From a virus (taxonomy: Duplodnaviria > Heunggongvirae > Uroviricota > Caudoviricetes): DNA of 64,000 nt. This document shows, in pieces, positions 8,342 to 60,888 of the stretch; the first letter of the stretch is position 1; each line of letters opens with the position of its first letter. A model generated the notes under the pieces. That model did no database searches. It was not told where the DNA came from and was given only the letters and a program-made list of their open reading frames with translations. The position numbers and the translations under genes were made by a program. The stretch lies in IMG/VR virus record IMGVR_UViG_3300044719_000150; one strand, 5' to 3'.

Positions 8342-8575
8342 ATGGATACTCGGCTGGTCACCATCAAGGACATCGCTCTGTTCAAGGGCTGGCCCGAGGA
8401 GCGCATCCTGATCGACGGCTCCAAGATCGGTAAGGCGATGGCGGCCCGCTACCGCGCGCTGACCGGCATGGAGCCCGAGAAGGTTCCGCAGCTGATCCGG
8501 GGCAAGGAGCGGCTGGTGTGTGCCTACCCGCAGCAGTTCATGAAACAACTGGGACAGGTCTGGCGCAGGAGCTAA
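8342..8575 (+). CDS. hypothetical protein
   Basis: RBS GAAGGG; GATCATG start context. Confidence 0.5.
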   Translation: MDTRLVTIKDIALFKGWPEERILIDGSKIGKAMAARYRALTGMEPEKVPQLIRGKERLVCAYPQQFMKQLGQVWRRS

Positions 8576-8891
8576 ACTGAAGGCGCGTCCGTATACCCTC
8601 GCCCTACGAAGGCGCTGAAAGGTTAACTGGACACATGCGGGTTCGACTCCCGCCGGGCGCACTGCACGGCCAATAGCGCTCCACTACCCAGTACTCTTGC
8701 GCTGTGCTACGCTAATCCCGGTATCGGTTGGGCGCAAAGCCCCGCTTCCTTGACATGAGGTGGCGGGGCTCTGTTATGCTGGCGCTACGCCCCACCCAGG
8801 CGCCGCAATTCTCTTATTTACGTAAATCCCCTGTTGCTCGCCATGCGACGCGCAAACGTTTATCATCTGCATCAAGATGAAAGGCGTTTTC

Positions 8892-15408: not shown

Positions 15409-15552
15409 TAGCTCGGGTGGCCGGGGGACTCCCCGAAACTCCGGCCACCTGGGCAGGCCAAAGCTAGAGCGCAAGCCCATAGGAGTCCCGCCAGATTGCA
15501 GGCGAAAGCCCAATGGACAGTCGCGGGAAACGTGATACAGTAGGACAAGCGA

Positions 15553-15630
15553 CGCGGGATGGAGCAGCTCGGTCAGCTCGCTGGGCTCATAACCCAGAGG
15601 TCGAGGGTTCAAATCCCTCTCCCGCTACCA
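15553..15630 (+). tRNA. tRNA-fMet (initiator, anticodon CAT), CCA encoded
   Basis: Close match to bacterial initiator tRNA: three G-C pairs closing the anticodon stem (GGGCTCATAACCC), 1-72 mismatch, T-loop GGTTCAAATCC. Confidence 0.75.
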
Positions 15631-15759
15631 GGGCGAGTGCCACTGGCATTTAGCCCGAAGGATCTCTGGCAAGAGACCTGCCGACGCTCGTGAGCTTGGA
15701 ACTGGATAGCGAGCTAGTAAGTCCGGACGTAAGTGCCGGGCCGGTGTCCAAGCGTTAAT

Positions 15760-15830
15760 TCCCGATTGGTGTAGTGGCAGCACGCGACCGTCTGGTGGTC
15801 GTAGCCGGGGTTCGAATCCTTGATCGGGAG
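15760..15830 (+). tRNA. tRNA-Gln (CTG)
   Basis: Cloverleaf folded by hand; acceptor TCCCGAT/ATCGGGA; T-loop GGTTCGAATCC. Confidence 0.55.
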
Positions 15831-15948
15831 CGAGGTAGAGGCGAGCGCCTGCCAGCGCGGACCTCGGGGCAGGGAGCCGGGGTGGCAGTCCCGTCTCAGC
15901 CCTGGCGTGCACCTCATCCCCGCCTTACGGCGGGCAGCACGCCACCTT

Positions 15949-16024
15949 GGCGCGGTATCCCAACTGGCAGTAGGAGCCTGGCTCAGACCCAGGTAATGTG
16001 TGGGTTCGACTCCCACCCGCGTCA
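15949..16024 (+). tRNA. atypical tRNA, anticodon CAG (Leu codon) but class-I length
   Basis: Acceptor GGCGCGG/CCGCGTC, anticodon stem CCTGG/CCAGG with loop CTCAGAC, T-loop GGTTCGACTCC; no long variable arm. Confidence 0.4.
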
Positions 16025-16153
16025 CGCAGCAGGCAGATTGCGCTGCCGGGGCGGCGCCTCCTCGCGGGGGGTGCTGGAAGATCGCTCTAAAATAGCCGCT
16101 ATTCGGTGGAAGCGTCCGCGAGACCCCAGACCGCGTGTGGCTATACGCACCAT

Positions 16154-16236
16154 GCATCCGTGGTGGAATTTGGCAGACACGCCAGGTTGAGGGCCTGGTG
16201 CCTTCGGGTGTGCGGGTTCAAATCCCGCCGGGTGCA
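16154..16236 (+). tRNA. tRNA-Leu (GAG), class II
   Basis: Long variable arm TGCCTTCGGGTGT; T-loop GGTTCAAATCC; anticodon loop TTGAGGG. Confidence 0.65.
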
Positions 16237-16312
16237 CGACACGGCCATCGACACCACGAGAGCCATCACTCTCTCGCCGTGTTTTCTGTCGGATCGAGGA
16301 AAGGGGAACGCA

Positions 16313-16515
16313 TGGCACTGTTCGGTGGTAGCAAGGGCAACGAGGACGCGGGCAAGGAAGCCCGTAGGCGCGCCGACGAGCACAGGACGCGCTCCCAGGA
16401 GCGCCAGTGGCATCCCACTGACGGCCGGGAAGAGGCTGAGAGGGAGGATGAAGCCTTCAGGGAGGGCCGCAGGCGCCAGTGGGTGGACCCCGCCGACAGC
16501 ACGGACGACGACTGA
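16313..16515 (+). CDS. hypothetical highly charged small protein
   Basis: RBS GAGGAAAGGGG before the ATG; 67 aa, Arg/Glu/Asp-rich; sits between tRNAs. Confidence 0.45.
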
Positions 16516-16569
16516 AGCATCACCGGCGGCTAGCGAGTCTGCGAAACCCAATGTGATCCCGCCACTACC

Positions 16570-16644
16570 GCCCCCGTACGCCAACTGGCAGAGCGGCCAT
16601 CCTCAAAAGGTGGTGGATCTCGGTTCGACTCCGAGCGCGGGGCA
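16570..16644 (+). tRNA. atypical tRNA, anticodon CAA (Leu codon) but class-I length, with an extra nucleotide between the T-stem and acceptor
   Basis: Shares the D-loop CCAACTGGCAG with the 15949 tRNA; T-arm CTCGG-TTCGACT-CCGAG. Confidence 0.35.
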
Positions 16645-16695
16645 CTGGACGCCCATAGGAGTGCCGCGCCCCATGGCGTCACCGGCGTCCTGCAC

Positions 16696-16769
16696 GGCTC
16701 CGTACCTCAGCTGGTAGAGGGCCCGGCTCATAACCGGTGAAGTCGGTGGATCGAGACCACCCGGAGCCA
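16696..16769 (+). tRNA. tRNA-Met or Ile2 (CAT), elongator type
   Basis: Acceptor GGCTCCG/CGGAGCC; anticodon loop CTCATAA; non-canonical T-loop ATCGAGA. Confidence 0.55.
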
Positions 16770-16925
16770 CTGCGGCCATGTTCCTCACGTAAACCAATGC
16801 CTAGTCGTCGTAAACCGTGATACGCTAGCCGTGTCCATTGATCCACCGCAAGCCCAATGGTTGCACGACGCACCACCTGGCGGCCAGGTTGACTCCATAG
16901 TCCAATAGATGCGCGCCGCCAGTAC

Positions 16926-16999
16926 CGGCCTGTAGCTCAGCTTGGAAGAGCAGCGCCTTCACACGGCGCGTGTCAGGGGTTCAAATCCCTTCGGGCCGA
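16926..16999 (+). tRNA. tRNA-Val (CAC)
   Basis: Cloverleaf folded by hand; T-loop GGTTCAAATCC. Confidence 0.6.
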
Positions 17000-17003
17000 C
17001 GAG

Positions 17004-17077
17004 CGGAATGTGGCGCAGCTTGGCAGCGCACCTGGCTGGGGGTCAGGGGGTCGCCGGTTCGAATCCGGCCATTCCGA
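17004..17077 (+). tRNA. tRNA-Pro (GGG)
   Basis: Acceptor CGGAATG/CATTCCG; anticodon loop CTGGGGG. Confidence 0.6.
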
Positions 17078-17131
17078 CGAGGTGGTGTCCGTGCTTGATT
17101 CGTGCTCCATGGGAGAACCGGCACCGCCCAC

Positions 17132-17204
17132 CGCCCCGTAGCTCATAGGGTAGAGCGCTTCCTTGACACGGAAGAAGCGGAAGGTTCGAGTCCTTCCGGG
17201 GCGA
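17132..17204 (+). tRNA. tRNA-Val (GAC)
   Basis: Acceptor CGCCCCG/CGGGGCG; anticodon loop TTGACAC. Confidence 0.65.
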
Positions 17205-17205
17205 C

Positions 17206-17277
17206 GCGCCCGTAGCTCAGGGGAAGAGCGTTCGCCTCCTAAGCGAAGGGCCGAGGGTTCGACTCCCTCCGGGCGCA
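17206..17277 (+). tRNA. tRNA-Arg (CCT)
   Basis: Acceptor GCGCCCG/CGGGCGC; anticodon loop CTCCTAA. Confidence 0.65.
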
Positions 17278-17509
17278 CGGCGTTCCTGGCCAAACTGGGT
17301 TCGAAAGACCATCTTGCGGAACCGCTGGGAACGTGATACGTTAGGACCTGTTGGCAGCCAAGTGCGGAACTTCGCACAGAACAAAGTCGCTGCCAGTGCA
17401 CCACCGATAACTTCAAGGTTGAACTCTCGTTGTCTAAGCCCTTGGTTATCGGATAATCGGCGGTTTCAAGGTTGGAGATTCTTCTGCCAAGCCCTTGGCC
17501 GCCGAACAT

Positions 17510-17582
17510 AGGGGTATAGCTCAGCGGCCAGAGCAGCGCTCTCCAAAGGCGCGTGTCGTAGGTTCGAGTCCTACTACCCCTG
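17510..17582 (+). tRNA. tRNA-Trp (CCA)
   Basis: Perfect acceptor AGGGGTA/TACCCCT; anticodon loop CTCCAAA. Confidence 0.65.
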
Positions 17583-17584
17583 CG

Positions 17585-17656
17585 GTGGCCATGGCCGAGC
17601 GGCTTAGGCACTGGTTTGTGGAACCAGGCAGGTGGGTTCGACCCCCACTGGCCACA
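17585..17656 (+). tRNA. tRNA-His (GTG), with a G at -1
   Basis: Acceptor GTGGCCA/TGGCCAC; anticodon loop TTGTGGA; starts 2 nt after tRNA-Trp. Confidence 0.6.
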
Positions 17657-17667
17657 CAATTGAATAT

Positions 17668-17738
17668 GGCCCTGTAGCTCAGGGGATGAGCAGCGCTCTA
17701 CGGAAGCGCGGACGCAGGTTCGAATCCTGTCAGGGCCT
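17668..17738 (+). tRNA. tRNA-Arg (ACG)
   Basis: Acceptor GGCCCTG/CAGGGCC; anticodon loop CTACGGA. Confidence 0.65.
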
Positions 17739-17879
17739 CTAGCCGCCTATACGACGCGCGCTTAGTATGCGGTGACTGGGTTCACGGAGAGAGAACGAAG
17801 TGCTGTTACTGGTAAGACCAGGACGGCTCTCGGCCCGTGTATGTCGGTAGGGTGGGCAGGCCGACGTTAACTGAATGAT

Positions 17880-17964
17880 GCGCTGAATCCCGAGGCATAG
17901 GGTATGCGGTCCGCAAGATCGCGGGGAGAGAATCCCCTCGCAGGTTCGAATCCTGCTCAGTGCA
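17880..17964 (+). tRNA. tRNA-like element, 85 nt (class-II-like; anticodon uncertain)
   Basis: Acceptor GCGCTGA/TCAGTGC and T-arm GCAGG-TTCGAAT-CCTGC are canonical; the D and anticodon arms are irregular; preceded by the leader TTAACTGAATGA. Confidence 0.35.
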
Positions 17965-18091
17965 CGGCACCGCCCGTAGCTCAAAGCCCTCTTCGCGAGG
18001 AGGGGTAAACGCAAGAGCCCTTGGGGTCTGTTCGCGCAGGCATCCCGAGGAGATCCGGAAGTGACCGGCGGCGGTGACCTTAACTGAATGA

Positions 18092-18162
18092 GCCGGGATA
18101 CCTCAATGGGCAGAGGACTCCTCTACAGAGGGGGCGCGCTGGTTCGAACCCAGCTCCTGGCG
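18092..18162 (+). tRNA. tRNA-like element (anticodon possibly ACA; 3-nt variable loop)
   Basis: Acceptor GCCGGGA/TCCTGGC; T-arm GCTGG-TTCGAAC-CCAGC; also preceded by TTAACTGAATGA. Confidence 0.35.
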
Positions 18163-18423
18163 CGGCTGGTGGCCGCCGGAACCCTTACCCGGCGGGCGCG
18201 GAGGCCAACTTGGGTTGATCCCCACCAGAGCCGCTCAAGCGGCGGCTCGCGCTAACGCATAGCGGAGGCGGTAGGGCTCTCACCCGAGCAAGATCCGCGT
18301 ACTCGTAGTAGCGGGCCCAGCACTTTGTTCCCGTGGCCTTCGGGCGTGCGGGAGGAGCGGGAAGTCTGACGCCGTTGCAGGGGGTCGGACCAGGTCGGAT
18401 GACGCGGGTTAGGCCGACCACAT

Positions 18424-18550
18424 GCGGAGGTGCCAGAGAGCAGTGAATGGGTGGACCGGAAGGTGTGCACGCCGGATGGTCCAGCTGGACAGTCATGCGG
18501 ACGCGTACGTGTGACGCTGGTCCTCGCGGGTGCAAATCCCGCTCTCCGCT
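18424..18550 (+). ncRNA. 127-nt tRNA-like RNA: canonical acceptor and T-arm flanking a ~50-nt extra segment
   Basis: GCGGAGG...GCGGG-TGCAAAT-CCCGC-TCTCCGC; possibly an intron-containing tRNA, a degenerate tRNA or another ncRNA. Confidence 0.3.
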
Positions 18551-18604
18551 CGATCCGCCGATTGCAAGCGGCGGTGATGGCCGTGCGTTGCGCAGCGTAC
18601 GGAA

Positions 18605-18699
18605 TGGGATTGGGTGCGTTGGAGCACAGGGAAACGAGTCAAACCGGTCAACCGGGGCGATAGGAGTACCAGGACCAGGTTCGAATCCTGGAATCCCGC
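18605..18699 (+). ncRNA. 95-nt tRNA-like RNA
   Basis: Acceptor TGGGATT/AATCCCG; T-arm CCAGG-TTCGAAT-CCTGG; the interior does not fold canonically. Confidence 0.3.
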
Positions 18700-18979
18700 G
18701 ATCGGTGGCTATTGAAAAGCCGACAACCCGTCATGCAGCGCCACCGATGCTACAATGCATGAGTATCCCGCACGCATGGGGTGGTGCCCTTGCGGCGGGG
18801 TCCAGGTGAAAGCTCTGGCTAACGCCCCAGTGCCCGGCCACCCCCCCCGGCCGGGGATACGACATCACCTGGACAAGTCTGCCGGTCCGACTCACCGGCA
18901 GATCGGGAGCCATGTAGTCGGGTTGGGCATGGCAAGCCGGAGACGTGGGTTAGTCCGGCGCTACGCAAGGAGGAAGGCA

Positions 18980-19129
18980 ATGGAATCGGTCGCAGAGGCG
19001 CCCCTGGTGGACATCATGGTGGTGTCCAAGGTGCGTGTCGCGAGAGGCGTGCCGCTCGGCGAGCTGGCCGACCGCGCCGCCGAGGCGCGCGCGGAACGCT
19101 CGGGCGTCCGCTTCAATTCGTCGATCTAG
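18980..19129 (+). CDS. hypothetical small protein
   Basis: Very strong RBS AAGGAGGAAGG 5 nt before the ATG; 49 aa. Confidence 0.45.
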   Translation: MESVAEAPLVDIMVVSKVRVARGVPLGELADRAAEARAERSGVRFNSSI

Positions 19130-19202
19130 TCCGCCGCCTCGGGGTCGGGGAAGCGGGCGAACCGGCGGCCAGGGCGCTCGCGTAAGTCAAAATCGCAGCC
19201 GC

Positions 19203-19275
19203 CGCCGGTCAAGGCACTGTAGCTCAGTTGGAAGAGCGTCCGGTTGAAGCCCGGAAGCGCGGCCGTTCGAACCGG
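19203..19275 (+). tRNA. tRNA-Phe (GAA)
   Basis: Acceptor GGCACTG/CGGTGCC; D-arm TAGCTCAGTTGGAAGAGC; anticodon loop TTGAAGC. Confidence 0.7.
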
Positions 19276-19304
19276 TCCGGTGCCACGCGAAGGGAGGTGC
19301 AGCG

Positions 19305-19589
19305 ATGGATCATCAGCGTGTCGAGGTGCGCTTCGAGCAGGAGCGCTTCGGCCCGAAGGCCGACGTGTGCTGGGAGTGCTCGGACCCCGAGGACAGGGTG
19401 TGGGTGCCGGTGACGTTCTGCGCGAGTGCCTCCCGGACGATGCCGGGCTGGGGCGAGGCGGACATGGAGCTGGGCTTCTACACGGTGCCGAACGCGCCGA
19501 GCATGTGGGACGAGCCCGAGTATGACGCGCTGGAGCGCTGGGACCAGTACGATCCTGACGCTTACTGGAGAGGTCGCCTAGCGGCCTAG
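19305..19589 (+). CDS. hypothetical protein
   Basis: RBS GAAGGGAGG before the ATG; 94 aa; its 3' end overlaps the first ~23 nt of tRNA-Ser(GCT). Confidence 0.45.
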   Translation: MDHQRVEVRFEQERFGPKADVCWECSDPEDRVWVPVTFCASASRTMPGWGEADMELGFYTVPNAPSMWDEPEYDALERWDQYDPDAYWRGRLAA

Positions 19590-19655
19590 GGCGCGGTCCT
19601 GCTAAGACCGTGGGCCCCGAAAGGGGCCCCGTGGGTTCGAATCCCACCCTCTCCG
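19567..19655 (+). tRNA. tRNA-Ser (GCT), class II
   Basis: GGAGAGG acceptor; D-arm CGCCTAGCGGCCTAGGGCG; long variable arm; T-loop GGTTCGAATCC. Confidence 0.7.
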
Positions 19656-19705
19656 CTTAATTGACTGGACAGCGCAACGTGGATGAGATACGTTAGTTCT
19701 CATGA

Positions 19706-19787
19706 GGCAGGTTGCCCGAGCGGCCAAAGGGAGCGCGCTGTAAACGCGTCGCGTCATGCTACGAAGGTTCGAATCCTTCACCTGCCA
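19706..19787 (+). tRNA. tRNA-Tyr (GTA), class II
   Basis: Acceptor GGCAGGT/ACCTGCC; D-arm CCCGAGCGGCCAAAGGG; long variable arm. Confidence 0.65.
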
Positions 19788-19835
19788 CGCACCACAACTC
19801 AAGGAGGACAGTAGGGACGGCGACAAGGAGGACGA

Positions 19836-20076
19836 GATGAAGCTCTTCAAGGACCGCAGTCCGGTCCAGGGACGCAGGATCGGTTCCAGGCTCACCGGCG
19901 AGGACGCGCGTAACGCTCTCGCGGAGGCGAAGCACCGAGGCGACCAGAGAGCCATCAGCGGCCTCCAGTACATCGAACGCAACGGTGGCTACATCAGCAT
20001 CGAAGATGATGCCGCCATCCGGCAAGACGTCGCAGCCGCCAAGCAAGTCCTACGCGATCTCGGCTACAAGCTCTGA
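19836..20076 (+). CDS. hypothetical small protein
   Basis: RBS CAAGGAGGACGAG before the ATG; 80 aa. Confidence 0.45.
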
Positions 20077-20128
20077 GCTTGTGCATGCCAACAGAATGCT
20101 TTTTGACAACTCCAGAGTGACGCGATAC

Positions 20129-20199
20129 GCGAATGTAGCTCAATGGTAGAGCGCCACCTTGCCATGGTGGATACGCGGGTTCGATTCCCGTCATTCGCT
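20129..20199 (+). tRNA. tRNA-Gly (GCC)
   Basis: Acceptor GCGAATG/CATTCGC; anticodon loop TTGCCAT. Confidence 0.7.
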
Positions 20200-20290
20200 C
20201 TACGGCGACCATTGCATCAACGCTTTCCAGAAGCGGTGCGTCGCCGGGCGCCTTGGATGCTCGCAGAATCCAAACCCTTAGCGGCGCCGT

Positions 20291-20364
20291 GGCCCGGTAG
20301 AGTAGCGGCCTATCTCATTTCCCTCTCAAGGAAAAGACCACGGGTTCGAATCCCGTTCGGGCTA
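20291..20364 (+). tRNA. tRNA-Glu (CTC), irregular D-arm
   Basis: Anticodon stem-loop TTTCC-CTCTCAA-GGAAA; T-arm ACGGG-TTCGAAT-CCCGT. Confidence 0.45.
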
Positions 20365-20479
20365 CAATCCGGTGGCCAAGAAAAACACGCACGCCAGATA
20401 GGCTGCGCCACCGGGAAACATTCGACGGCTAACGGCGGTTCAATACCCAATCTAGGCACGCCGTCGATACTCGTTCATT

Positions 20480-20553
20480 CGTCCCATCGTCTAGCGGCCT
20501 AGGATCCCACCCTTTCAAGGTGCGAGGCACGGGTTCGAATCCCGTTGGGACGA
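20480..20553 (+). tRNA. tRNA-Glu (TTC)
   Basis: Acceptor CGTCCCA/TGGGACG; D-arm GTCTAGCGGCCTAGGAT; anticodon loop CTTTCAA. Confidence 0.6.
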
Positions 20554-20676
20554 CCAGGTCAGGCTCGCAGGGAGCCTGCGACGTGAGGGCCCTACGGCCG
20601 TAGGGTTTCCGCCGCGAGAAGCGCGCGTAAAAGCCTCAGACCGGAACCGCATGTAGCTTGCATGCGGACCTGTAAT

Positions 20677-20750
20677 GCAGGTGTGGTGTAATTGGCAGCA
20701 CGTCACGCTTCCAACGTGAAGGCCTGCGGGTTCAAGTCCCGTCACCTGCT
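20677..20750 (+). tRNA. tRNA-Gly (TCC)
   Basis: Acceptor GCAGGTG/CACCTGC; anticodon loop CTTCCAA. Confidence 0.65.
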
Positions 20751-20751
20751 C

Positions 20752-20824
20752 CGGGCTGTCGCCTAATGGTATGGCACTGCATTTGGGATGCAGCATAACG
20801 CAGGTTCGATTCCTGCCAGTCCGA
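20752..20824 (+). tRNA. tRNA-Pro (TGG)
   Basis: Acceptor CGGGCTG/CAGTCCG; anticodon loop TTTGGGA. Confidence 0.6.
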
Positions 20825-20835
20825 CTGCATGACAA

Positions 20836-20911
20836 CGGCGCGTGGCCAAACTTGGTAAGGCACCTCGTTCGGGACGAGGAAATTTTGCAGGTTCAAATCC
20901 TGTCGCGCCGA
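20836..20911 (+). tRNA. tRNA-Pro (CGG)
   Basis: Acceptor CGGCGCG/CGCGCCG; anticodon loop TTCGGGA. Confidence 0.6.
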
Positions 20912-20923
20912 CTTGTAAAATAT

Positions 20924-20995
20924 GCGCCCTTGGCCGAGTGGTTTAGGCACAGCCCTGCAAAGGCTGATACACCCGTTCGAACCGGGTAGGGCGCT
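20924..20995 (+). tRNA. tRNA-Cys (GCA)
   Basis: Perfect acceptor GCGCCCT/AGGGCGC; anticodon loop CTGCAAA. Confidence 0.65.
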
Positions 20996-21091
20996 CAAGG
21001 TGGCCAATGGTTGGTGCGCAAACCAATGACCGAACGCCACCGACCTCCGGCTAAGTTTCCTACGCAAGACCATGTCAGCTTCGCCGGACAT

Positions 21092-21165
21092 GCCCTCATT
21101 GCCTAGCGGCCTAAGGCGGCTCACTTGGTAGGTGAGACACGGGTGTTCGAATCACCCTGAGGGCT
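21092..21165 (+). tRNA. tRNA-Thr (GGT)
   Basis: Acceptor GCCCTCA/TGAGGGC; anticodon loop TTGGTAG. Confidence 0.65.
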
Positions 21166-21246
21166 CAATGGCGGCCACTTTGCGCACGTTGCACCATTTA
21201 CGTGGCGCCGCCAGACGTGTCGTACCGTTGATATACTGTTCGATGC

Positions 21247-21648
21247 ATGGAGAAGAAGTGTAACTGGTGCGGTGAGATAAAGCCGCTCAACAAGTTCCAT
21301 CGGCGTGGTCCGAATGGACGCCAGGCGGTTTGCATCCCATGCAAGCAGGAGTACGACAAGGCGAACTATCGCAAGAAGGCAGAGCATCACAAGGGGGTCG
21401 TGGCGGCACGAGTGCAAGAAGTGAAGCTCTGGGCTCGCACACTCAAGGACGGCCCATGCACTGATTGTGGTGGCCAGTTCCATCCTGAAGCTATGCAGTG
21501 GGATCACGTCTCCGGAAGTAAGCGCTGGGATGTGGGCGCTATGACGCACGCCGGTTACGCAAAAGAGACAATCCTGAAGGAAATCGCGAAGTGCGAGCTG
21601 GTCTGCGCGAACTGCCATGCAGTGCGAACGGCCAGTCGTCGCGAGTAA
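21247..21648 (+). CDS. HNH endonuclease
   Basis: CxxC...WDHV...N...CxxCH pattern (CNWCG, WDHVSG, LVCANCH); 133 aa; embedded in the tRNA array. Confidence 0.75.
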   Translation: MEKKCNWCGEIKPLNKFHRRGPNGRQAVCIPCKQEYDKANYRKKAEHHKGVVAARVQEVKLWARTLKDGPCTDCGGQFHPEAMQWDHVSGSKRWDVGAMTHAGYAKETILKEIAKCELVCANCHAVRTASRRE

Positions 21649-21657
21649 GGTAGTTTT

Positions 21658-21731
21658 GCCGGGCTAGCTCAATTGGCAGAGCGGCGCACTCGTAATGCGC
21701 AGGTTTCGGGGTTCAAATCCCCGGTCCGGCT
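21658..21731 (+). tRNA. tRNA-Thr (CGT)
   Basis: Acceptor GCCGGGC/GTCCGGC; anticodon loop CTCGTAA. Confidence 0.6.
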
Positions 21732-21889
21732 CCAGCAGTGGCCATTCACTCGGCTCCGCACCCAATGGACGCCCGCCACTGCGTAGATCCGGCAGCCATG
21801 TTCGACTCGGTGCCCAACGCCACCGCGCTGCCACAAACCTCGACAGCCATATAGATCACGTAGGACCAAAACATACTCGCTGTCGATAT

Positions 21890-21964
21890 GGGGGTGTAGC
21901 TCAGCCCGGTTAGAGCATTTCGCTGATAACGAAAAGGTCACAGGTTCAAATCCTGTCATCCCCA
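21890..21964 (+). tRNA. tRNA-Ile (GAT)
   Basis: Acceptor GGGGGTG/CATCCCC; anticodon loop CTGATAA. Confidence 0.65.
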
Positions 21965-21968
21965 CCTT

Positions 21969-22041
21969 GGGCCCGTAACTCAGTCGGAAGAGTACCGTCC
22001 TTTTAAGTCGGGAGTCGTGGGTTCGAGCCCCACCGGGCTCA
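21969..22041 (+). tRNA. tRNA-Lys (TTT)
   Basis: Anticodon loop CTTTTAA; T-loop GGTTCGAGCCC. Confidence 0.6.
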
Positions 22042-22045
22042 CTTT

Positions 22046-22119
22046 GTGCCGTTAACTCAATTGGTCAGAGTACCGTCCTCTTAAGTCGGGAGTTGGGGGT
22101 TCAAGTCCCTCACGGCACA
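22046..22119 (+). tRNA. tRNA-Lys (CTT)
   Basis: Perfect acceptor GTGCCGT/ACGGCAC; anticodon loop CTCTTAA. Confidence 0.65.
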
Positions 22120-22128
22120 CTACACTTC

Positions 22129-22201
22129 GGGGTCGTAGCTCAATTGGTAGAGCATCCGCTTCGCGAGCGGAAGGTTGAGTGTTCAAGTCACTTCGACTCC
22201 A
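22129..22201 (+). tRNA. tRNA-Ala (CGC)
   Basis: G3:U70 identity pair; anticodon loop TTCGCGA. Confidence 0.6.
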
Positions 22202-22243
22202 CTTAAGGCACCGGCGTGAAGCCATGGCTGCGTCCGGTGACCT

Positions 22244-22315
22244 GGGGCATACAGCCAGGGAGGCGGACCGGCCTTGCAAGCCGTGTCGTGGTCGGTTCGA
22301 TGCCGACATGCTCCA
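22244..22315 (+). tRNA. tRNA-Ala (TGC)
   Basis: Acceptor GGGGCAT/ATGCTCC with G3:U70; anticodon loop CTTGCAA. Confidence 0.55.
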
Positions 22316-22326
22316 CGTATACGTTA

Positions 22327-22398
22327 GGGCCCGTAGCTCAAAAGTAGAGCACCTGCATGGCACGCAGGAGGCTGGGATTGCGAAATTCCTCGGGTCCA
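22327..22398 (+). tRNA. tRNA-Ala (GGC)-like with a non-canonical T-arm (possible pseudogene)
   Basis: Acceptor GGGCCCG/CGGGTCC with G3:U70; anticodon stem-loop CCTGC-ATGGCAC-GCAGG; T-loop TGCGAAA mismatched. Confidence 0.4.
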
Positions 22399-22683
22399 CT
22401 ACCGCCGCGCGGTCGGCGGACAAGCCCGTTCGGAGCGTGGCCTCTGTGAAGGAACAAACCGTGGGATGCAGTGATTCCGAATAGCGGTCCCAGGTGCTTG
22501 ACCATCCGTACAGCCGCCTTGCGGGGCGGAGCCTGACCCGCCGCACACGGGTTGGGCTGATGGGTGTCCCGCAGGGGATCACCGTTCAGCGCACAGGGCG
22601 TCGGGCCCTGGTAAGCGGGTCCGGCCCCCTGCGGGCTCCACGAGTGAGTCGCCCGGCACTCTATAATCCCTACCGGCGAGCCT

Positions 22684-22770
22684 GGAGAATTGGCCGAGTG
22701 GACTATGGCGCCGTCTTGGAAAGGCGGTGGGTGCTTCGGTGCCCCACAGGTTCGAATCCTGTATTCTCCG
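22684..22770 (+). tRNA. tRNA-Ser (GGA), class II
   Basis: Perfect acceptor GGAGAAT/ATTCTCC; long variable arm; TATAAT hexamer 16 nt upstream (22663-22668). Confidence 0.7.
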
Positions 22771-23036
22771 CTGGGCGACCACCTCCAGTCCGATTTCCAT
22801 GTACCGCACGTCGCCCCACCTTTTAGCGGCTAGTGATGTGTCGATATCCAAAGCACGAACGCCGCCTTGTTTCACCCGGTAGCCATTCAGAGCTCGTGCA
22901 CCGCACCTCAACCGCTACCGGTATCATTGCCCTCGACGGCCAGCCATGATCCGATTCCCATACATGGCCCGCTGTCGATATCCTGCCGGTGGCCACGATG
23001 TGGGTCGTTTTCCATAGCATGCACGCCGCCGGTTTT

Positions 23037-23113
23037 GGGGATGTAGCTCAGTCTGGTCTAGAGCGCTCGCCTGTCACGCGAGAGGTTCGCGGGTTCAAAT
23101 CCCGTCATCCCCG
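23037..23113 (+). tRNA. tRNA-Asp (GTC)
   Basis: Perfect acceptor GGGGATG/CATCCCC; anticodon loop CTGTCAC. Confidence 0.7.
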
Positions 23114-23154
23114 CTAGTGCGGCAGTTGAGACGCATCGGCAAGCCGGGTCGCAC

Positions 23155-23225
23155 TACCCCGTAACTCAGCGGAAGAGGCCGCCAAGCGCAGGCGGAGGGC
23201 GCAGGTTCGAGTCCTGCCGGGGAGC
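23155..23225 (+). tRNA. tRNA-like, anticodon possibly GCG (Arg); A32/A33 in the loop
   Basis: Canonical T-arm GCAGG-TTCGAGT-CCTGC and D-arm; one acceptor mismatch; unusual anticodon loop AAGCGCA. Confidence 0.35.
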
Positions 23226-23251
23226 TGGCACAAGCGCAAGGAGCGCATGCA

Positions 23252-23479
23252 GTGGCAAAGGGAGAACGGGTTCTGAGTGTCACCCTCGCCGACTGCCGGG
23301 TGGATACGTTCCGCTCGGGCGGCAAGGGCGGCCAGAACCAGAACAAGCGCGAGACCGGCGTGCGGATCGTGCACGAGCCGTCCGGCGCGGTGGGCGAGTC
23401 CCGCGAGGAGCGTTCGCAGCTCCAGAACAAGCGGACGGCTTTCAAGCGCATGGCCGCTCATCCGCGTTTCAAGGTTTGA
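23252..23479 (+). CDS. GGQ-motif peptidyl-tRNA hydrolase domain protein (class-I release factor / ArfB-like), 75 aa
   Basis: GTG after AAGGAG; DTFRSGGKGGQNQNKRETGVRIVHEPSG...ERSQLQNKRTA matches the RF-1/ArfB catalytic GGQ domain; ends at a TGA followed in frame by a coding-like segment. Confidence 0.7.
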   Translation: MAKGERVLSVTLADCRVDTFRSGGKGGQNQNKRETGVRIVHEPSGAVGESREERSQLQNKRTAFKRMAAHPRFKV

Positions 23480-23641
23480 CTGAATCGGCAGCTCTACGGT
23501 CTGTCCGGTGATGGGAACCGTGGCTATGCCTGGAAGTTCGAGGGCGGCAAGTGGGTGCCGAACAGCACTCCGGGCACGCCGAAGGACATCAAGGTGGAGG
23601 TCAAGGTGAACGGCCGGTGGGTCGAGGTGCCTGCCGAGTAG
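23480..23641 (+). other. in-frame 53-codon coding-like extension downstream of the UGA of the GGQ gene (possible readthrough or recoding)
   Basis: Same frame as the GGQ CDS; high GC at third positions; no ATG or GTG start with an RBS near its beginning; ends at TAG 23639-23641. Confidence 0.35.
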
Positions 23642-23648
23642 CAGGCTA

Positions 23649-23721
23649 TGCTCCGTAGCTCAGTGGAAAGAGCAGCAGCTTCCGAGGCTGAAGGTCGCGG
23701 GTTCGAATCCCGCTGGGGCAA
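23649..23721 (+). tRNA. tRNA-Arg (CCG)
   Basis: Anticodon loop TTCCGAG; T-arm GCGGG-TTCGAAT-CCCGC. Confidence 0.55.
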
Positions 23722-23772
23722 CTGTGGCGTCCATATCAAGGACAGGATCCAGAGCAGTGCGACGCCACGTTT

Positions 23773-23863
23773 GGAAGGGTGGACCGAGTGGACTATGGCG
23801 CACGCCTCGAAAGCGTCGCGGGTCGCGCGAGCGGCCTCGTGGGTTCGAATCCCACCCCTTCCG
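23773..23863 (+). tRNA. tRNA-Ser (CGA), class II
   Basis: Perfect acceptor GGAAGGG/CCCTTCC; D-arm GGACCGAGTGGACTATGGC; long variable arm. Confidence 0.65.
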
Positions 23864-24020
23864 CTGCTGGTGGCCAGCGTACGATCCATCACCAATGATC
23901 CAGCGCCACCGGCCCCTTTTCGATAGCCAGCATGCATGCGACCTCCAGACTTCATGCGCTATCGAATTCTTGTGGCGGCCAGACCTTCGCACGTCCTCCA
24001 AGACGAGCGCGCCGCCCTTT

Positions 24021-24106
24021 GGAGAGTTGCCCGAGTGGTAATGGGTGCCGCCTTGAAAGCGGATGACGGGCGAAAGCCCGCGCGGGTTCGAATCCTGCAC
24101 TCTCCG
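24021..24106 (+). tRNA. tRNA-Ser (TGA), class II
   Basis: Perfect acceptor GGAGAGT/ACTCTCC; D-arm GCCCGAGTGGTAATGGGT; anticodon loop CTTGAAA. Confidence 0.65.
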
Positions 24107-24202
24107 CTGGCGTCCATGCCTTGATCCGCAAGCCCAAAGTACGCCCGACGCCACCAGCGCCTATCAGTTCTTCGGATGACCAAGTCCCAGACGGCGCTGC
24201 GT

Positions 24203-24276
24203 TCCTCCGTCGCCCAATAGGTAGGGCACCGGATTGTTAATCCGCCCAGGTGCAGGTTCGAATCCTGCCGGAGGAG
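24203..24276 (+). tRNA. tRNA-Asn (GTT)
   Basis: Perfect acceptor TCCTCCG/CGGAGGA; anticodon loop TTGTTAA. Confidence 0.6.
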
Positions 24277-24293
24277 CTTGCCGGGAGGTGTCC

Positions 24294-24836
24294 ATGGCCC
24301 TCTCGGAGCAAGAACGTGAGTATCAGCGCCAGTACAAGCAGCGTATCCGTGACGCGTTCGTGGCCTCGCGTGGGGGGGCTTGCGAGCGCTGCGGGGCTGA
24401 TCCTGGCGCGTACGGGCTGGTGGTGGACTACGCCGACCTGAGCACCAAGCCGGGCTATGCGAGCAAGATCTGGAGCATGGGCCGCGAGCGGCGCGAAGCG
24501 GAGCTGGAGAAGTGCATCGTCCTGTGCCGAGCGTGCCACCTCGTCCACACCGAGCCGCCACACGGGACGCTGGCTCGTGCTCGCCGCTTCAAGGACAAGT
24601 GCACCTGCCAAGGCTGCAAAGACGCGGAGAACGTCTACCAGCGCTCCTGGGCGGCGCGCAGGCGTGCGTATAAGCCGAGGCGTATCAGCACCAAGATGCT
24701 GGACGAGCCGTGGCGCGAGGAGCTAAAGCACTTCCCGACCGAGGCGCCGCAGGTGCCGGAGAACGGATGGTGGAACGATCTTGGGCGCGATGATACGCTA
24801 GCCGACGACGCCCTAGGGAACTCGCAAACCCAATGA
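24294..24836 (+). CDS. HNH-like zinc-finger endonuclease-related protein
   Basis: RBS GGAGGTG before the ATG; CERCG...LCRACH pattern; the catalytic His region is degenerate. Confidence 0.5.
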   Translation: MALSEQEREYQRQYKQRIRDAFVASRGGACERCGADPGAYGLVVDYADLSTKPGYASKIWSMGRERREAELEKCIVLCRACHLVHTEPPHGTLARARRFKDKCTCQGCKDAENVYQRSWAARRRAYKPRRISTKMLDEPWREELKHFPTEAPQVPENGWWNDLGRDDTLADDALGNSQTQ

Positions 24837-32661: not shown

Positions 32662-32739
32662 CTCAGCCTCCTGAGTTGGCATCATCAGGCCAGCGGGAAT
32701 CACCCGGCTGACGACGGGCCACGGTGGGCCCGTTTCGCC

Positions 32740-32976
32740 CTAGGCTGTCAGCGCGCGGTAGGTCGTGACTGCCTCGCGGGCCCAGGGCTCCGAACCGTGC
32801 GCGTGCCCGGACTGGTCCGCCAGCATTCCGGCGCTCTGCGCCACGCTTTCCCACGCGGAGCCGGTGACCGCGCTCACGATGCGAGACCATGCCTCGCGCA
32901 TGCTCTCACCGGTGCCGGTGACCGCGCGGCGCGGCGCGTTTCCGCCTCGCAGGGCGTTGCCATTCTTGCGTCCCAT
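32740..32976 (-). CDS. hypothetical small protein
   Basis: RBS GATAGGAG; CTGATCATG start; promoter at 33012-33040. Confidence 0.45.
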   Translation of the reverse strand: MGRKNGNALRGGNAPRRAVTGTGESMREAWSRIVSAVTGSAWESVAQSAGMLADQSGHAHGSEPWAREAVTTYRALTA

Positions 32977-59574: not shown

Positions 59575-59614
59575 GGGACTAACGTATCACATACACACCC
59601 CTGCGCGCCAGGCC

Positions 59615-60520: not shown

Positions 60521-60888
60521 CTACCCCTCCTCTCGCACCCTCTTGATGCCGAAGTTCTGGCCTGCTTTGGTCGGGATCCACAGCCCGTCGCGCACGCAGC
60601 CTAGCGCGATCATCGGCTCCTGCATCACCAGCGCGGTCATGTCGCTGGCGAACATCGGCCAGTCGCGCCGCTCCTCGTCCCTCCAGTAGAAGGTGATCGA
60701 GGAGCGGCCACGGCCGTAGCCGGAGAGGGTGAGCGTGGCCCGGAACGGCTCGACCGGCCGCCAATCCGGATCCACCATGTCACCCTCATACTCATACTGG
60801 TCCACGTTCCACACGACCCGGCGGCTCTTGCCCGGATACTCCATCAGGCAGCCGTTGGCGTCGAACGGGGCCGTGCGGTCCCAGGCCA
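60521..60888 (-). CDS. hypothetical protein between the ligase and kinase genes (GTG overlapping the ligase stop)
   Basis: In-frame protein-like segment coupled on both sides (TAGTG upstream, TAGATG downstream). Confidence 0.4.

What the first reader, a model, noticed from the sequence alone, without database searches (positions are those of the whole stretch)
17740..18960. ~1.2 kb of the tRNA island with no canonical tRNAs or ORFs but dense in tRNA-like arms and long tRNA-like RNAs
This stretch contains T-loops (GTTCGAAT/GTTCGAAC) and acceptor-like stems that delimit non-standard elements. There is an 85-nt element (17880-17964). There is a 71-nt element with a 3-nt variable loop (18092-18162). 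A 127-nt element (18424-18550) has a perfect acceptor and T-arm flanking a ~50-nt insert. A 95-nt element lies at 18605-18699. There is also a fragment beginning like a tRNA (GCCCGTAGCTCAAAG) with a CGC anticodon-like hairpin but no T-arm. Two elements are preceded by the same 12-nt leader TTAACTGAATGA. Candidates are intron-containing tRNAs, split or degenerate tRNAs, or a new structured ncRNA such as a tRNA-mimic decoy for anticodon nucleases.
Basis: seen in the sequence. Interest (0 to 1): 0.6.

Follow-up and report, generated by a model that had tools for sequence, protein, structure and literature searches.

The report
Structured RNAs inside a phage tRNA array
This gap in a phage's block of 40 tRNA genes is not filler: it encodes tRNA look-alikes plus a previously undescribed, strongly conserved cloverleaf-shaped RNA that always sits flush against a tRNA gene and also occurs, unannotated, in cultured Streptomyces and Gordonia phages.

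Summary
"No canonical tRNAs" is wrong: 18092-18162 passes Rfam's tRNA threshold. The region has two parts.

Part 1 (17867-18162) is a strain-variable cassette of tRNA-like genes. A genome that is 99.5-99.9% identical on both flanks has one different 84-nt element there.

Part 2 (18164-18698) is a conserved block: an RNA I call X, a two-hairpin module (M1), tRNA-like element TLS2, a second two-hairpin module (M4), and tRNA-like element TLS3.

X (18164-18327) is a four-way junction with invariant loops AACCCUUAC, GAGGCCAAC, AAGAUC and GUAGUAGCG.
- 19 copies were found, including Gordonia phage Boopy and Streptomyces phages Satis and Frankenweenie.
- In the 16-copy alignment, 18 of 30 pairs show compensatory changes.
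- In each of those 16 copies, X starts directly after a tRNA or tRNA-like 3' end.
- It matches no Rfam family.

The tRNA-like elements keep a covarying acceptor stem and T-arm but have no conserved anticodon.

Best reading: these RNAs are co-transcribed with the tRNAs and cut out by RNase P and RNase Z. Their function is unknown. Intron-containing tRNA, split tRNA, tmRNA and Y RNA readings are not supported. The decoy idea is untested.

The parts
17740..17866 (+). Spacer after tRNA-Arg(ACG). It ends in a degenerate copy of the M1 hairpin b (GTCGG-TAGGGTGGGCAG-GCCGAC, 17843-17865).
   Evidence: Read from the sequence. Its fold is no more stable than shuffled sequence (z = -0.22). Identical in L003/L059.
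17867..17878 (+). Leader motif TTAACTGAATGA, copy 1. It marks the left edge of the strain-variable cassette.
   Evidence: The same AACTGAAT-type leader precedes tRNA-Arg(ACG), EA or TLS2 in L014, L064, L065 and L078.
17880..17964 (+). EA, an 85-nt tRNA-like RNA with a long variable arm (GGGGAGAGAAUCCCC). Its anticodon-position loop is CCGCAAG, with C33.
   Evidence: ARAGORN calls tRNA-Cys(GCA). Rfam tRNA-Sec scores 26.6 bits, below the gathering score of 47. The minimum-energy fold is a cloverleaf, z = -3.27. The orthologue at L064 14007-14094 has loop UCGCGAG. EA is absent from L003, L014 and L065.
17972..18079 (+). Fragment that begins like a tRNA (GCCCGTAGCTCAAAG). It is probably the 5' remnant of a larger tRNA-like element.
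   Evidence: L014 17835-18116 keeps GCCGTAGCTCAAAGG, and a matching 3' strand CCTTTG follows a T-arm. The window copy lacks that 3' partner. Its fold is no better than shuffled sequence (z = 0.07).
18080..18091 (+). Leader motif TTAACTGAATGA, copy 2.
18092..18162 (+). Strain-specific tRNA with anticodon ACA and discriminator G. It abuts X.
   Evidence: Rfam tRNA 48.2 bits. ARAGORN calls Cys(ACA). The minimum-energy fold collapses the anticodon loop to 4 nt. L003/L059 carries a different 84-nt tRNA-like element without an anticodon loop at this position.
18164..18327 (+). X RNA, a four-way junction. P1 pairs 18165-18169 with 18317-18321. Hairpin H1 is 18173-18195 with loop AACCCUUAC. A long P2/P3 arm carries the internal loop GGCCAAC/CAAGA. 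Hairpin P4 is 18302-18315 with loop AGUA, inside the invariant GUAGUAGCG.
   Evidence: RNAalifold. The single-sequence fold gives the same helices. Covariance model R1 scores 130.6 bits. 19 copies found. On the 16-copy alignment, 95.8% of cells pair and 18 of 30 pairs show compensatory change. In those 16 copies X abuts a tRNA or tRNA-like 3' end.
18350..18423 (+). M1, a two-hairpin module. Hairpin a is GUCUGAC/GUCGGAC. Hairpin b is GGUCGG/CCGACC with the conserved loop GACGYGGGUUAG.
   Evidence: Homologues lie at L014 17668-17752 (there upstream of tRNA-Arg) and L065 7748-7827 (upstream of TLS2). Both stems differ between copies yet still pair. The loop motif occurs exactly twice in the window.
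18424..18550 (+). TLS2, a 127-nt tRNA-like element. It has a 7-bp acceptor, a T-arm with loop UGCAAAU, and two long hairpins where the anticodon arm would be.
   Evidence: The positional counterpart L065 7828-8007 belongs to a conserved family also found in Streptomyces phages. The window copy lacks that family's core.
18551..18605 (+). M4, two hairpins. The first has the invariant loop AUUGCAAG, followed by the linker UGAUGG.
   Evidence: Four lineages: 100% of cells pair and 5 of 11 pairs show compensatory change.
18606..18698 (+). TLS3, a tRNA-like element. It has a 6-bp acceptor GGGAUU/AAUCCC, a D-like arm with the CGU(U)GGAG motif, a canonical T-arm, and no anticodon loop.
   Evidence: Orthologues are at L014 18383-18462, L064 14356-14432 and L065 8062-8151. 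In the acceptor and T-stem, 93% of cells pair and 4 of 11 pairs show compensatory change.
18699..18979 (+). Structured extension found only in this lineage. It ends in a second M1 copy (M1b, about 18915-18965, loop GACGUGGGUUAG at 18942-18953) just before the ribosome-binding site of the 49-aa ORF at 18980-19129.
   Evidence: Fold z = -2.54. Motif located. M1b aligns with the other M1 copies. No similarity to L014, L064 or L065. No coding bias.

Best explanation
The flagged stretch is a non-coding part of the phage's + strand tRNA operon. It encodes structured small RNAs rather than decoding tRNAs.

Its components are:
- a fast-changing cassette of tRNA-like genes (17867-18162);
- X (18164-18327), a conserved four-way-junction RNA of a family not in Rfam;
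- two hairpin modules, M1 and M4;
- two tRNA 'top-half' mimics, TLS2 and TLS3. These keep the acceptor stem, T-arm and a GG-containing D-like loop, but the anticodon arm is replaced by variable hairpins.

Proposed mechanism (inferred, not shown): the whole array is transcribed as tRNA precursors. The host tRNA end-processing enzymes are RNase P at 5' ends and RNase Z at 3' ends; most tRNAs here lack an encoded CCA. These enzymes recognise the acceptor/T-arm halves of the flanking tRNAs and tRNA-like elements. In doing so they release X, M4 and the tRNA-like RNAs as discrete stable molecules.

The tRNA-like elements therefore retain exactly the parts those enzymes need. They act as punctuation or as scaffolds. 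X is the element most strongly under selection.

What X then does is unknown. Its cloverleaf-like shape and invariant loops point to binding a protein or RNA partner linked to tRNA metabolism.
For: Shown:
- Non-coding and strand-specific. There is no GC3 bias. The + strand folds with z = -4.07 against -1.13 for the - strand. Conserved G-U pairs in P4 would be A-C mismatches on the other strand.
- X structure. RNAalifold and the single-sequence fold agree. With 5 sequences, 8 pairs show compensatory change and 0 of 500 shuffles reach that. With 16 sequences, 95.8% of cells pair, 18 of 30 pairs show compensatory change, and sliding the partners drops pairing to 26-53%.
- Invariant loops.
- Flush junctions. 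In 14 of 16 loci an ARAGORN tRNA of any identity ends at gap 0 before X. In 13 of 16 the T-arm ends exactly 9 nt before X. In 6 of 16 a tRNA begins 1-2 nt inside X's modelled 3' end.
- In Gordonia phage Boopy, X exactly fills the 123-nt gap between the annotated tRNA-Val and tRNA-Thr.
- The P1 helix of X closes its own two ends.
- tRNA-like elements: compensatory changes in the acceptor, T and D-like stems of TLS1 and TLS3. Their inner domains vary in length (77-93 nt for TLS3, 127 versus 180 nt for TLS2).
- M4: 100% of cells pair, with 5 compensatory pairs.
- Only 3 of the 39 array tRNAs end in CCA, so 3' maturation has to be endonucleolytic followed by CCA addition. That step rests on established knowledge of RNase Z.
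- Precedent: phage T4 makes two small RNAs of unknown role, RNAC and RNAD, from its tRNA region (PMC3014915).
Against: - There are no expression or end-mapping data, so processing is inferred from geometry alone.
- In this window TLS1 is deleted. The 3' end of X is therefore not flush with a tRNA-like element; the next one starts 97 nt downstream.
- EA and tRNA(ACA) are dispensable, being absent from the near-identical L003/L059.
- TLS3 of L064 has only 4 clean acceptor pairs.
- The TLS, M1 and M4 statistics rest on 3-4 sequences.
- The 16-sequence X alignment was fitted to the model, which inflates the paired fraction.
- If punctuation were the only need, ordinary tRNAs would do, and in many loci they do. 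The reason for keeping tRNA-like elements is therefore unexplained.
Confidence: 0.55

Rival explanations
1. Neutral debris. The stretch is a graveyard of decaying tRNA pseudogenes and recombination scars, produced by homing endonucleases and tRNA-gene swapping. It has no function of its own.
For: - The array carries HNH endonuclease genes at 21247-21648 and 24294-24836.
- L014 has a tRNA-Phe 5' half, then an HNH ORF, then a replacement tRNA-Phe.
- The cassette 17877-18162 differs between 99.5-99.9% identical genomes.
- The fragment at 17972 lacks its 3' partner.
- TLS1 is deleted in the window.
- EA is present in only two lineages.
- 17740-17879 and 17972-18091 fold no better than shuffled sequence.
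Against: - X, M4, TLS1 and TLS3 keep invariant loops and covarying stems. This holds across lineages whose neighbouring ParB-like protein is only 64-76% identical.
- X is conserved as far as Gordonia and Streptomyces phages.
- Debris would not hold a helix register across 16 sequences.
- This reading probably is right for the sub-region 17740-18091.
Confidence: 0.15
2. Decoys. The tRNA-like RNAs, and perhaps X, are mimics that soak up host tRNA-cleaving defence nucleases or toxins and so protect the real tRNA pool.
For: - The phage carries a T4-type tRNA repair set: RNA ligase 1 (60889-62070), polynucleotide kinase-phosphatase (59615-60520), RlaP nucleotidyltransferase (58885-59574) and an SPFH protein.
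- Whole tRNA genes (Glu-CTC, Glu-TTC, Thr-GGT) are replaced by diverged alleles between near-identical genomes. That fits an arms race over tRNAs (PMC10264068, listed).
- The loop of tRNA(ACA), CUACAGA, differs by one base from that of the nearby tRNA-Arg(ACG), CUACGGA.
- RNA-repair genes lie near TLS2-type or X loci in other phages.
Against: - Anticodon nucleases read the anticodon loop, and TLS1, TLS2 and TLS3 lack one.
- The anticodon-bearing candidates, EA and tRNA(ACA), are the least conserved parts.
- No defence system or target is identified.
- Nothing here tests binding.
Confidence: 0.15
3. Unusual but functional tRNAs. The long elements are intron-containing, split or long-arm tRNAs (Sec-like or allo-tRNA-like) that mature into decoders.
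For: - ARAGORN calls EA and tRNA(ACA) as tRNAs in the window. In relatives it calls TLS1 of L064 as 'tRNA-Asn(GTT)', 89 nt, and EA of L064 as 'tRNA-Arg(GCG)'.
- Weak tRNA-Sec matches of 17-27 bits.
- The acceptor and T-arm are intact.
Against: - No group I or II intron match at E<=10.
- The inserts replace the whole anticodon arm rather than interrupting a loop.
- EA has C33, and its anticodon changes between orthologues.
- All tRNA-Sec scores are far below the gathering score of 47, and none has a UCA anticodon.
- The array already holds a normal tRNA-Cys(GCA) at 20924-20996.
Confidence: 0.05
4. A divergent tmRNA (one- or two-piece) or a bacterial Y RNA (YrlA-type), as found in some large actinophages.
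For: - Large actinophages with tRNA arrays can encode tmRNA and Ro60/Y RNAs (PMC4201824).
- The elements have T-arms.
- X carries an invariant UAGUAG that resembles tandem stop codons.
Against: - ARAGORN finds no tmRNA in the window.
- The only Rfam tmRNA match is 9.5 bits on the end of tRNA-Arg.
- No acceptor has a G3:U70 pair.
- The frame ending in UAGUAG is not conserved as a peptide tag.
- YrlA (RF02553) gives no match in the window at E<=10. Its topology is the reverse of these elements: its ends sit in the Ro-binding stem and its acceptor-like stem is closed by a loop.
- No TROVE domain was found among 27 window proteins scanned.
Confidence: 0.03

Closest known systems
Phage T4 RNAC and RNAD (small stable RNAs from the T4 tRNA gene region)
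   Same: They are small non-tRNA RNAs encoded inside a phage tRNA cluster and made with the tRNAs. Their role is still unknown (PMC3014915, PMC9697503). This is the best functional and positional analogy for X, M4 and the tRNA-like elements.
   Different: Unlike what those papers say of RNAC and RNAD, X is defined by a covarying four-way junction and by zero-nucleotide junctions with its flanking tRNAs.
tmRNA and other tRNA-scaffold RNAs (tRNA-like domain carrying a foreign domain)
   Same: TLS2 and TLS3 pair their 5' and 3' ends into an acceptor stem stacked on a T-arm, and a non-tRNA domain replaces the anticodon arm. This is the tmRNA layout.
   Different: There is no G3:U70 pair, no tag reading frame, no pseudoknot series and no ARAGORN or Rfam tmRNA match. 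The elements are much shorter (77-180 nt).
Bacterial Y RNA YrlA (Rfam RF02553)
   Same: It is a tRNA mimic with T- and D-like arms, it occurs in actinobacteria and mycobacteriophages, and it can be cut by RNase P (PMC4201824).
   Different: The topology is permuted. In YrlA the ends form the Ro-binding stem and the 'acceptor' is a closed stem-loop. There is no RF02553 match in the window. The single 23-bit match in phage Gilson spans the junction of two adjacent tRNA-type genes. No Ro60 gene was seen in the window.
GOLLD and ROOL large RNAs (phage-associated and often next to tRNAs, from my own knowledge)
   Same: They are structured non-coding RNAs of unknown function that tend to lie beside tRNA genes in phage genomes.
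   Different: No Rfam match to either at E<=10. X is only about 120-165 nt, against roughly 600-800 nt.
MALAT1/mascRNA-type tRNA-like processing signals
   Same: A tRNA-like structure is used as a cleavage signal for RNase P and RNase Z, and so defines the end of a neighbouring non-coding RNA. This is the mechanism proposed here.
   Different: That system is eukaryotic and nuclear, and unrelated in sequence. The only mascRNA matches are weak hits on true tRNAs.

Membership tests
tRNA (Rfam RF00005) | Covariance-model score at or above the gathering score (29 bits) | tested here: met
   Met only for 18092-18162 (48.2 bits). EA, TLS2 and TLS3 give no RF00005 match at E<=10.
tRNA (Rfam RF00005) | 7-nt anticodon loop with U33 and an anticodon kept in orthologues | tested here: not met
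   EA has loop CCGCAAG in the window and UCGCGAG in L064, so C33 and GCA versus GCG. tRNA(ACA) has U33. However, its minimum-energy fold collapses the loop to 4 nt, and the gene is replaced in L003/L059. TLS1, TLS2 and TLS3 have no 7-nt loop at that position.
tRNA-Sec (RF01852) | Score at or above 47 bits, and a UCA anticodon | tested here: not met
   Best score is 26.6 bits for EA. The tRNA-like elements in relatives score 17-20 bits. None has a UCA anticodon.
tmRNA | Detection by ARAGORN or RF00023, a G3:U70 acceptor pair, and a tag reading frame | tested here: not met
   No tmRNA in the window. A 9.5-bit partial match lies on tRNA-Arg only. The acceptors read from sequence have no G3:U70. 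The frame ending in UAGUAG is not conserved as a peptide.
Group I / group II intron inside a tRNA | Match to an intron covariance model, with the insert inside an anticodon loop | tested here: not met
   No intron family appears at E<=10 in 17700-19250. The inserts are 50-110 nt and replace the whole arm.
YrlA / bacterial Y RNA (RF02553) | Model match, RNA ends forming the Ro-binding stem, and a neighbouring Ro60 (TROVE) gene | tested here: not met
   No match in the window. The ends of the tRNA-like elements form the acceptor stem instead. No TROVE domain in 27 window proteins. The other half of the 120-kb genome was not examined.
GOLLD / ROOL | Match to RF01998 or RF03087 | tested here: not met
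   No match at E<=10.
T4 RNAC/RNAD-type 'stable RNAs of the tRNA cluster' | Encoded within the tRNA cluster on the tRNA strand | tested here: met
   The region lies between tRNA-Arg(ACG) at 17668-17739 and tRNA-Phe at 19213-19286. Strand support comes from folding and from G-U pairs.
T4 RNAC/RNAD-type 'stable RNAs of the tRNA cluster' | Accumulates as a discrete processed RNA during infection | not testable with these tools
   No transcriptome data are available for this uncultured phage.
X RNA (family defined here, model R1) | Four-way junction P1/H1/P2-P3/P4 with the invariants AACCCUUAC, GAGGCCAAC, AAGAUC and GUAGUAGCG, starting directly after a tRNA-type 3' end | tested here: met
   Window 18164-18327 scores 130.6 bits. 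Invariants listed. tRNA(ACA) ends at gap 0 before it.
TLS2-core family (Streptomyces phages Gilson, Moab, Satis; L065; L078) | Invariant core GCACCGGSACCGGGCC ... GGUUGGGGAACC ... CCCCCGGSAGGGAAGCGCG inside a tRNA top half | tested here: not met
   The window's TLS2 occupies the same position (after M1, before M4). The core is absent from the whole window even with 2-3 mismatches allowed.

The most novel reading that the evidence does not exclude
X is a new functional RNA class tied to tRNA maturation or translation, not a passive spacer. One possibility is a self-cleaving ribozyme that cuts at its own 5' edge. That would make the upstream tRNA's 3' end without host enzymes, and the resulting cyclic phosphate could be resolved by the phage's own kinase-phosphatase. 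Another possibility is a tRNA-shaped cofactor that presents its invariant UAGUAG loop to the ribosome or to the small release-factor-domain (GGQ) protein encoded in the same array. The evidence does not exclude either. X is cloverleaf-shaped, its loops are invariant over 16 aligned lineages, it is always flush with a tRNA 3' end, and it matches no known ribozyme or RNA family.
Probability: 0.12. Interest if true: 0.9.

Novelty: new variant of a known kind. Interest (0 to 1): 0.66.

Why it matters
Phage tRNA arrays are usually annotated as tRNAs plus empty spacers. This spacer instead holds a conserved RNA family (X). It occurs in at least 19 phage genomes or contigs. These include isolates that can be grown in the laboratory on Gordonia terrae and Streptomyces. 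In those records X is unannotated or overlaid with a 'hypothetical protein'. X is always wedged against a tRNA, which suggests phages use the tRNA-processing machinery to manufacture other RNAs. The question of what the non-tRNA RNAs of phage tRNA clusters do has been open since T4 RNAC and RNAD. It is now testable in tractable actinophages. The same data show whole tRNA genes being swapped between almost identical genomes. That bears on the current debate about phage tRNAs as countermeasures to tRNA-cleaving defences.

Tried and rejected
- DNA search of the region against 50,697 phage records found no match. Later searches with relatives' sequences did find cultured phages.
- The exact 23-mer of the TLS3 T-arm plus acceptor hit only an unrelated phage tRNA-Ile.
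- The 19-mer GTACTCGTAGTAGCGGGCC hit 29 unrelated ~50% GC IMG/VR contigs that carry one shared sequence, apparently the end of a protein-coding gene. This is a chance match.
- The single metagenome scan, with an M1 pattern, returned only chance hits plus the known L014 contig.
- Both genome-collection scans gave nothing or chance hits.
- The tail protein was a poor anchor. Seven look-ups of its homologues gave relatives without this locus downstream. The ParB-like gene just upstream of the array worked.
- Resemblances I noticed by eye were dropped because no Rfam match supports them, even at E<=10, and the order of the motifs is wrong. These were RNase P P4 (GGGAAGUC, AGAACCC) and SRP RNA (ACCAGGUC...GAUGACGCG).
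- The tmRNA tag reading of UAGUAG was rejected.
- The sigma-70 promoter and terminator scan was uninformative.
- The 124-aa ORF at 18755-19129 was rejected as coding upstream of 18980. GC3 there is 0.71 against 0.88 downstream, and there is no Pfam match.
- A possible 5-bp kissing contact between the X H1 loop (AACCC) and the M1 loop (GGGUU) was noted. It cannot be tested because both are invariant, and L064 lacks M1.
Full report
**Context.** The window is from a 64% GC tailed phage. It has a T4-type large terminase at 38242-39669 and a 1029-aa tail protein. A + strand array of about 40 tRNA genes runs from 15553 to 24277. The source contig is a 119,921-bp JGI metagenome contig (L058). The flagged stretch lies between tRNA-Arg(ACG) at 17668-17739 and tRNA-Phe at 19213-19286.

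**Checking the observation.** Every listed element is present.
- ARAGORN calls 17880-17965 as tRNA-Cys(GCA) and 18092-18163 as tRNA-Cys(ACA).
- Rfam's tRNA model scores 18092-18162 at 48.2 bits, so 'no canonical tRNAs' is too strong.
- EA (17880-17964) matches only tRNA-Sec, at 26.6 bits against a gathering score of 47.
- No intron, tmRNA or other family appears even at E<=10.
- No reading frame shows the third-position GC bias of this genome's genes. The 49-aa ORF at 18980-19129, which has an AAGGAGG ribosome-binding site, has GC3 of 0.88.
- The + strand of 18164-18980 folds far better than shuffled sequence (z = -4.07). The - strand does not (z = -1.13).

**Relatives.** A near-identical genome (L003 = L059, 118,920 bp) matches the window at 99.5-99.9% in blocks across the array. 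More distant relatives with the same synteny were reached through the ParB-like gene just upstream of the array. They are L014, L064 and L065, with 76%, 64% and 67% identity in that protein. All have a tRNA-poor interval before tRNA-Phe that aligns with the window in patches.

**Part 1: a variable cassette (17867-18162).**
- Between the window and L003/L059, the sequence is identical apart from one substitution on both sides over 17660-19300.
- The 286 nt from the first leader to the end of tRNA(ACA) are replaced in L003/L059. That genome has 84 nt holding a single tRNA-like element. It shares the D-arm of tRNA(ACA) but has a UUCG-capped hairpin where the anticodon loop should be.
- EA has an orthologue only in L064. 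Its acceptor covaries. Its loop is YCGCRAG with C33, and the 'anticodon' differs (GCA versus GCG).
- The fragment at 17972 matches the 5' end of a roughly 270-nt tRNA-like element in L014. That element's 3' strand (CCTTTG) is missing in the window.
- I read this sub-region as rapidly turning-over, partly degenerate tRNA-type cassettes.
- The same behaviour affects ordinary tRNA genes. Glu(CTC), Glu(TTC) and Thr(GGT) are each replaced by a diverged allele with the same anticodon, and the boundaries fall at the gene ends.

**Part 2: a conserved block (18164-18698).** Its centre is X.
- In the window, L014, L064 and L065, RNAalifold predicts a four-way junction. It consists of P1 (GCWGG/CCWGC) closing the two ends, hairpin H1, a long P2/P3 arm with an internal loop, and hairpin P4.
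- The window's own minimum-energy fold gives the same helices.
- A covariance model (R1) found one copy per genome. It then found a fifth lineage, L078.
- A pattern built from the invariant loops found 14 IMG/VR contigs.
- R1 confirms 16 copies at 46-141 bits.
- On that alignment 95.8% of cells pair, and 18 of 30 pairs show changes on both sides. No shuffle out of 500 reaches the observed values. Sliding the partners drops pairing to 26-53%. The alignment was fitted to the model. The MAFFT-based five-sequence alignment gives the same picture, with 8 compensatory pairs and 0 of 500 shuffles.
- The loops AACCCUUAC, GAGGCCAAC, AAGAUC and GUAGUAGCG are invariant.
- Three more copies are in cultured phages.
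  - In Gordonia phage Boopy, X exactly fills the 123-nt gap between the annotated tRNA-Val and tRNA-Thr.
  - In Streptomyces phage Frankenweenie, X follows tRNA-Arg(CCG).
  - Streptomyces phage Satis also carries a copy.
  - In Kradal and EhyElimayoE, a 'hypothetical protein' is annotated over it.

**Position of X.**
- In 14 of 16 loci an ARAGORN tRNA ends at gap 0 before X. The tRNA identities are Arg, Cys(ACA), Ala, Glu, Ile, Tyr, Pro, Lys, Leu and Thr.
- In 13 of 16 the T-arm ends exactly 9 nt before X.
- In the remaining two loci a T-arm-bearing element sits at the same distance.
- In 6 of 16 a tRNA starts 1-2 nt inside the modelled 3' end of X. In several others a T-arm follows within about 20-60 nt.

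**The other conserved modules.**
- TLS1 is about 85 nt and is present in L014, L064 and L065 but deleted in the window. 98.5% of its cells pair, with 5 compensatory pairs in the acceptor, D-like, inner and T stems.
- TLS3 (window 18606-18698) has 93% pairing in the acceptor and T stems, with 4 compensatory pairs. It shares a CGU(U)GGAG motif in all four lineages.
- M4 (18551-18605) has 100% pairing and 5 compensatory pairs, with the invariant loop AUUGCAAG.
- M1 (18350-18423) has two hairpins whose stems differ between copies yet still pair. The conserved loop is GACGYGGGUUAG. It recurs at about 18915-18965 before the small ORF, and in degenerate form at 17843-17865.
- TLS2 in L065 belongs to a separate conserved family, described under 'Noticed in passing' below. 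The window's TLS2 lacks that family's core.

**Mechanism.**
- Shown: non-coding, strand-specific, conserved structure, and flush junctions with tRNA-type units.
- Inferred: the array is transcribed as precursors. RNase P and RNase Z read the acceptor/T-arm half of a tRNA, and so release X, M4 and the tRNA-like RNAs. Only 3 of the 39 array tRNAs encode CCA. From established knowledge of RNase Z, this implies endonucleolytic 3' maturation followed by CCA addition.
- The tRNA-like elements keep just the acceptor, the T-arm and a GG-bearing D-like loop, while their inner domains drift in length.
- The function of X is open.

**Rivals.**
- Neutral debris probably explains 17740-18091 but not the covarying block.
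- The decoy idea fits the RNA-repair genes at 58885-62070 and the tRNA allele swapping. It is untested, and the best-conserved tRNA-like elements lack anticodon loops.
- Intron-containing or split tRNA, tRNA-Sec, tmRNA and YrlA each fail a defining test.

**Comparison with known systems.** The nearest analogy is T4 RNAC and RNAD, small RNAs of unknown role from the T4 tRNA region (PMC3014915). Neither Rfam 15 nor the searched literature describes X. I class the finding as a new variant of a known kind, namely non-tRNA RNAs embedded in phage tRNA operons. There is a modest chance that X is something categorically new.

**Noticed in passing: the TLS2-core family.** The TLS2 of L065 is a tRNA top half carrying a 115-150-nt arm with an invariant core. 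The same family is present, unannotated, in Streptomyces phages Gilson, Moab and Satis, and in L078 and L080. RNAalifold finds 12 compensatory pairs in four members.

Noticed in passing
window 20293-20403, 20469-20553, 21096-21160 (and 15545-15826, 22407-22562) versus L059: Two genomes are 99.5-99.9% identical across the array. Even so, whole tRNA genes (Glu-CTC, Glu-TTC, Thr-GGT) are replaced by strongly diverged alleles with the same anticodon. The breakpoints fall at the gene ends. This looks like cassette-style allele replacement of tRNA genes.
   Followed up: partly
L065 7828-8007; L075 (Streptomyces phage Gilson NC_048742.1) 2484-2674; L076 (Moab) ~378-568; L077 (Satis) ~340-572; L078 6051-6237; L080 ~1208: A conserved, unannotated RNA family. 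It is a tRNA top half (acceptor, D-arm, T-arm) carrying a 115-150-nt arm with the invariant core GCACCGGSACCGGGCC...GGUUGGGGAACC...CCCCCGGSAGGGAAGCGCG. An anticodon-position hairpin has a covarying stem and the loop AAAAACGGAG. There are 12 compensatory pairs in 4 sequences and no Rfam match. In Moab a 'hypothetical protein' CDS is annotated over it.
   Followed up: partly
window 58885-64000 (- strand): An RNA-repair gene cluster: RlaP nucleotidyltransferase (58885-59574), polynucleotide kinase-phosphatase (59615-60520), T4-type RNA ligase 1 (60889-62070) and an SPFH/band-7 protein (62996-64000). Similar genes lie near the TLS2-type RNA in phage Gilson and in L080.
   Followed up: partly
window 23252-23479 (+): A 75-aa ORF inside the tRNA array. 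JGI's annotation gives it an RF-1 (peptide release factor) domain, and its translation contains a GGQ motif. It may be a minimal peptidyl-tRNA hydrolase or ribosome-rescue factor.
   Followed up: no
window 32670-32740 (- strand): A type II hammerhead ribozyme match at 37.7 bits, just above Rfam's gathering score of 37. It overlaps the start of the 567-aa ORF at 31000-32703 (- strand).
   Followed up: no
L014 18503-19131: A tRNA-Phe 5' half is followed by an HNH endonuclease ORF and then a complete, lower-GC replacement tRNA-Phe. This looks like a homing-endonuclease insertion that brought its own tRNA. The window itself has HNH-type ORFs at 21247-21648 and 24294-24836.
   Followed up: partly
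window 8574-8662 (+): An isolated tRNA-like element about 7 kb upstream of the array. It has the leader AAACTGAAG, an internal TTAACTGGACA, the T-arm GCGGGTTCGACTCCCGC and a partly paired acceptor. Neither ARAGORN nor Rfam calls it.
   Followed up: no
window 22327-22398 (+): A tRNA found by Rfam (49.8 bits) but missed by ARAGORN.
   Followed up: no
L064 13483-13640 and L065 7084-7245: A conserved, apparently structured leader (CAGCGGMAACGCGAAACCGTGCGG...GATGAGGCGGGA...) lies upstream of a small ORF inside the tRNA array. It has no Rfam match and has no counterpart in the window.
   Followed up: no
Streptomyces phages Kradal MK620894.1 ~126837-126983 and EhyElimayoE MW291021.1 ~126840-126986: The X RNA is overlaid by an annotated 'hypothetical protein' CDS in these GenBank records. 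This is probably a mis-annotation of a non-coding RNA.
   Followed up: no
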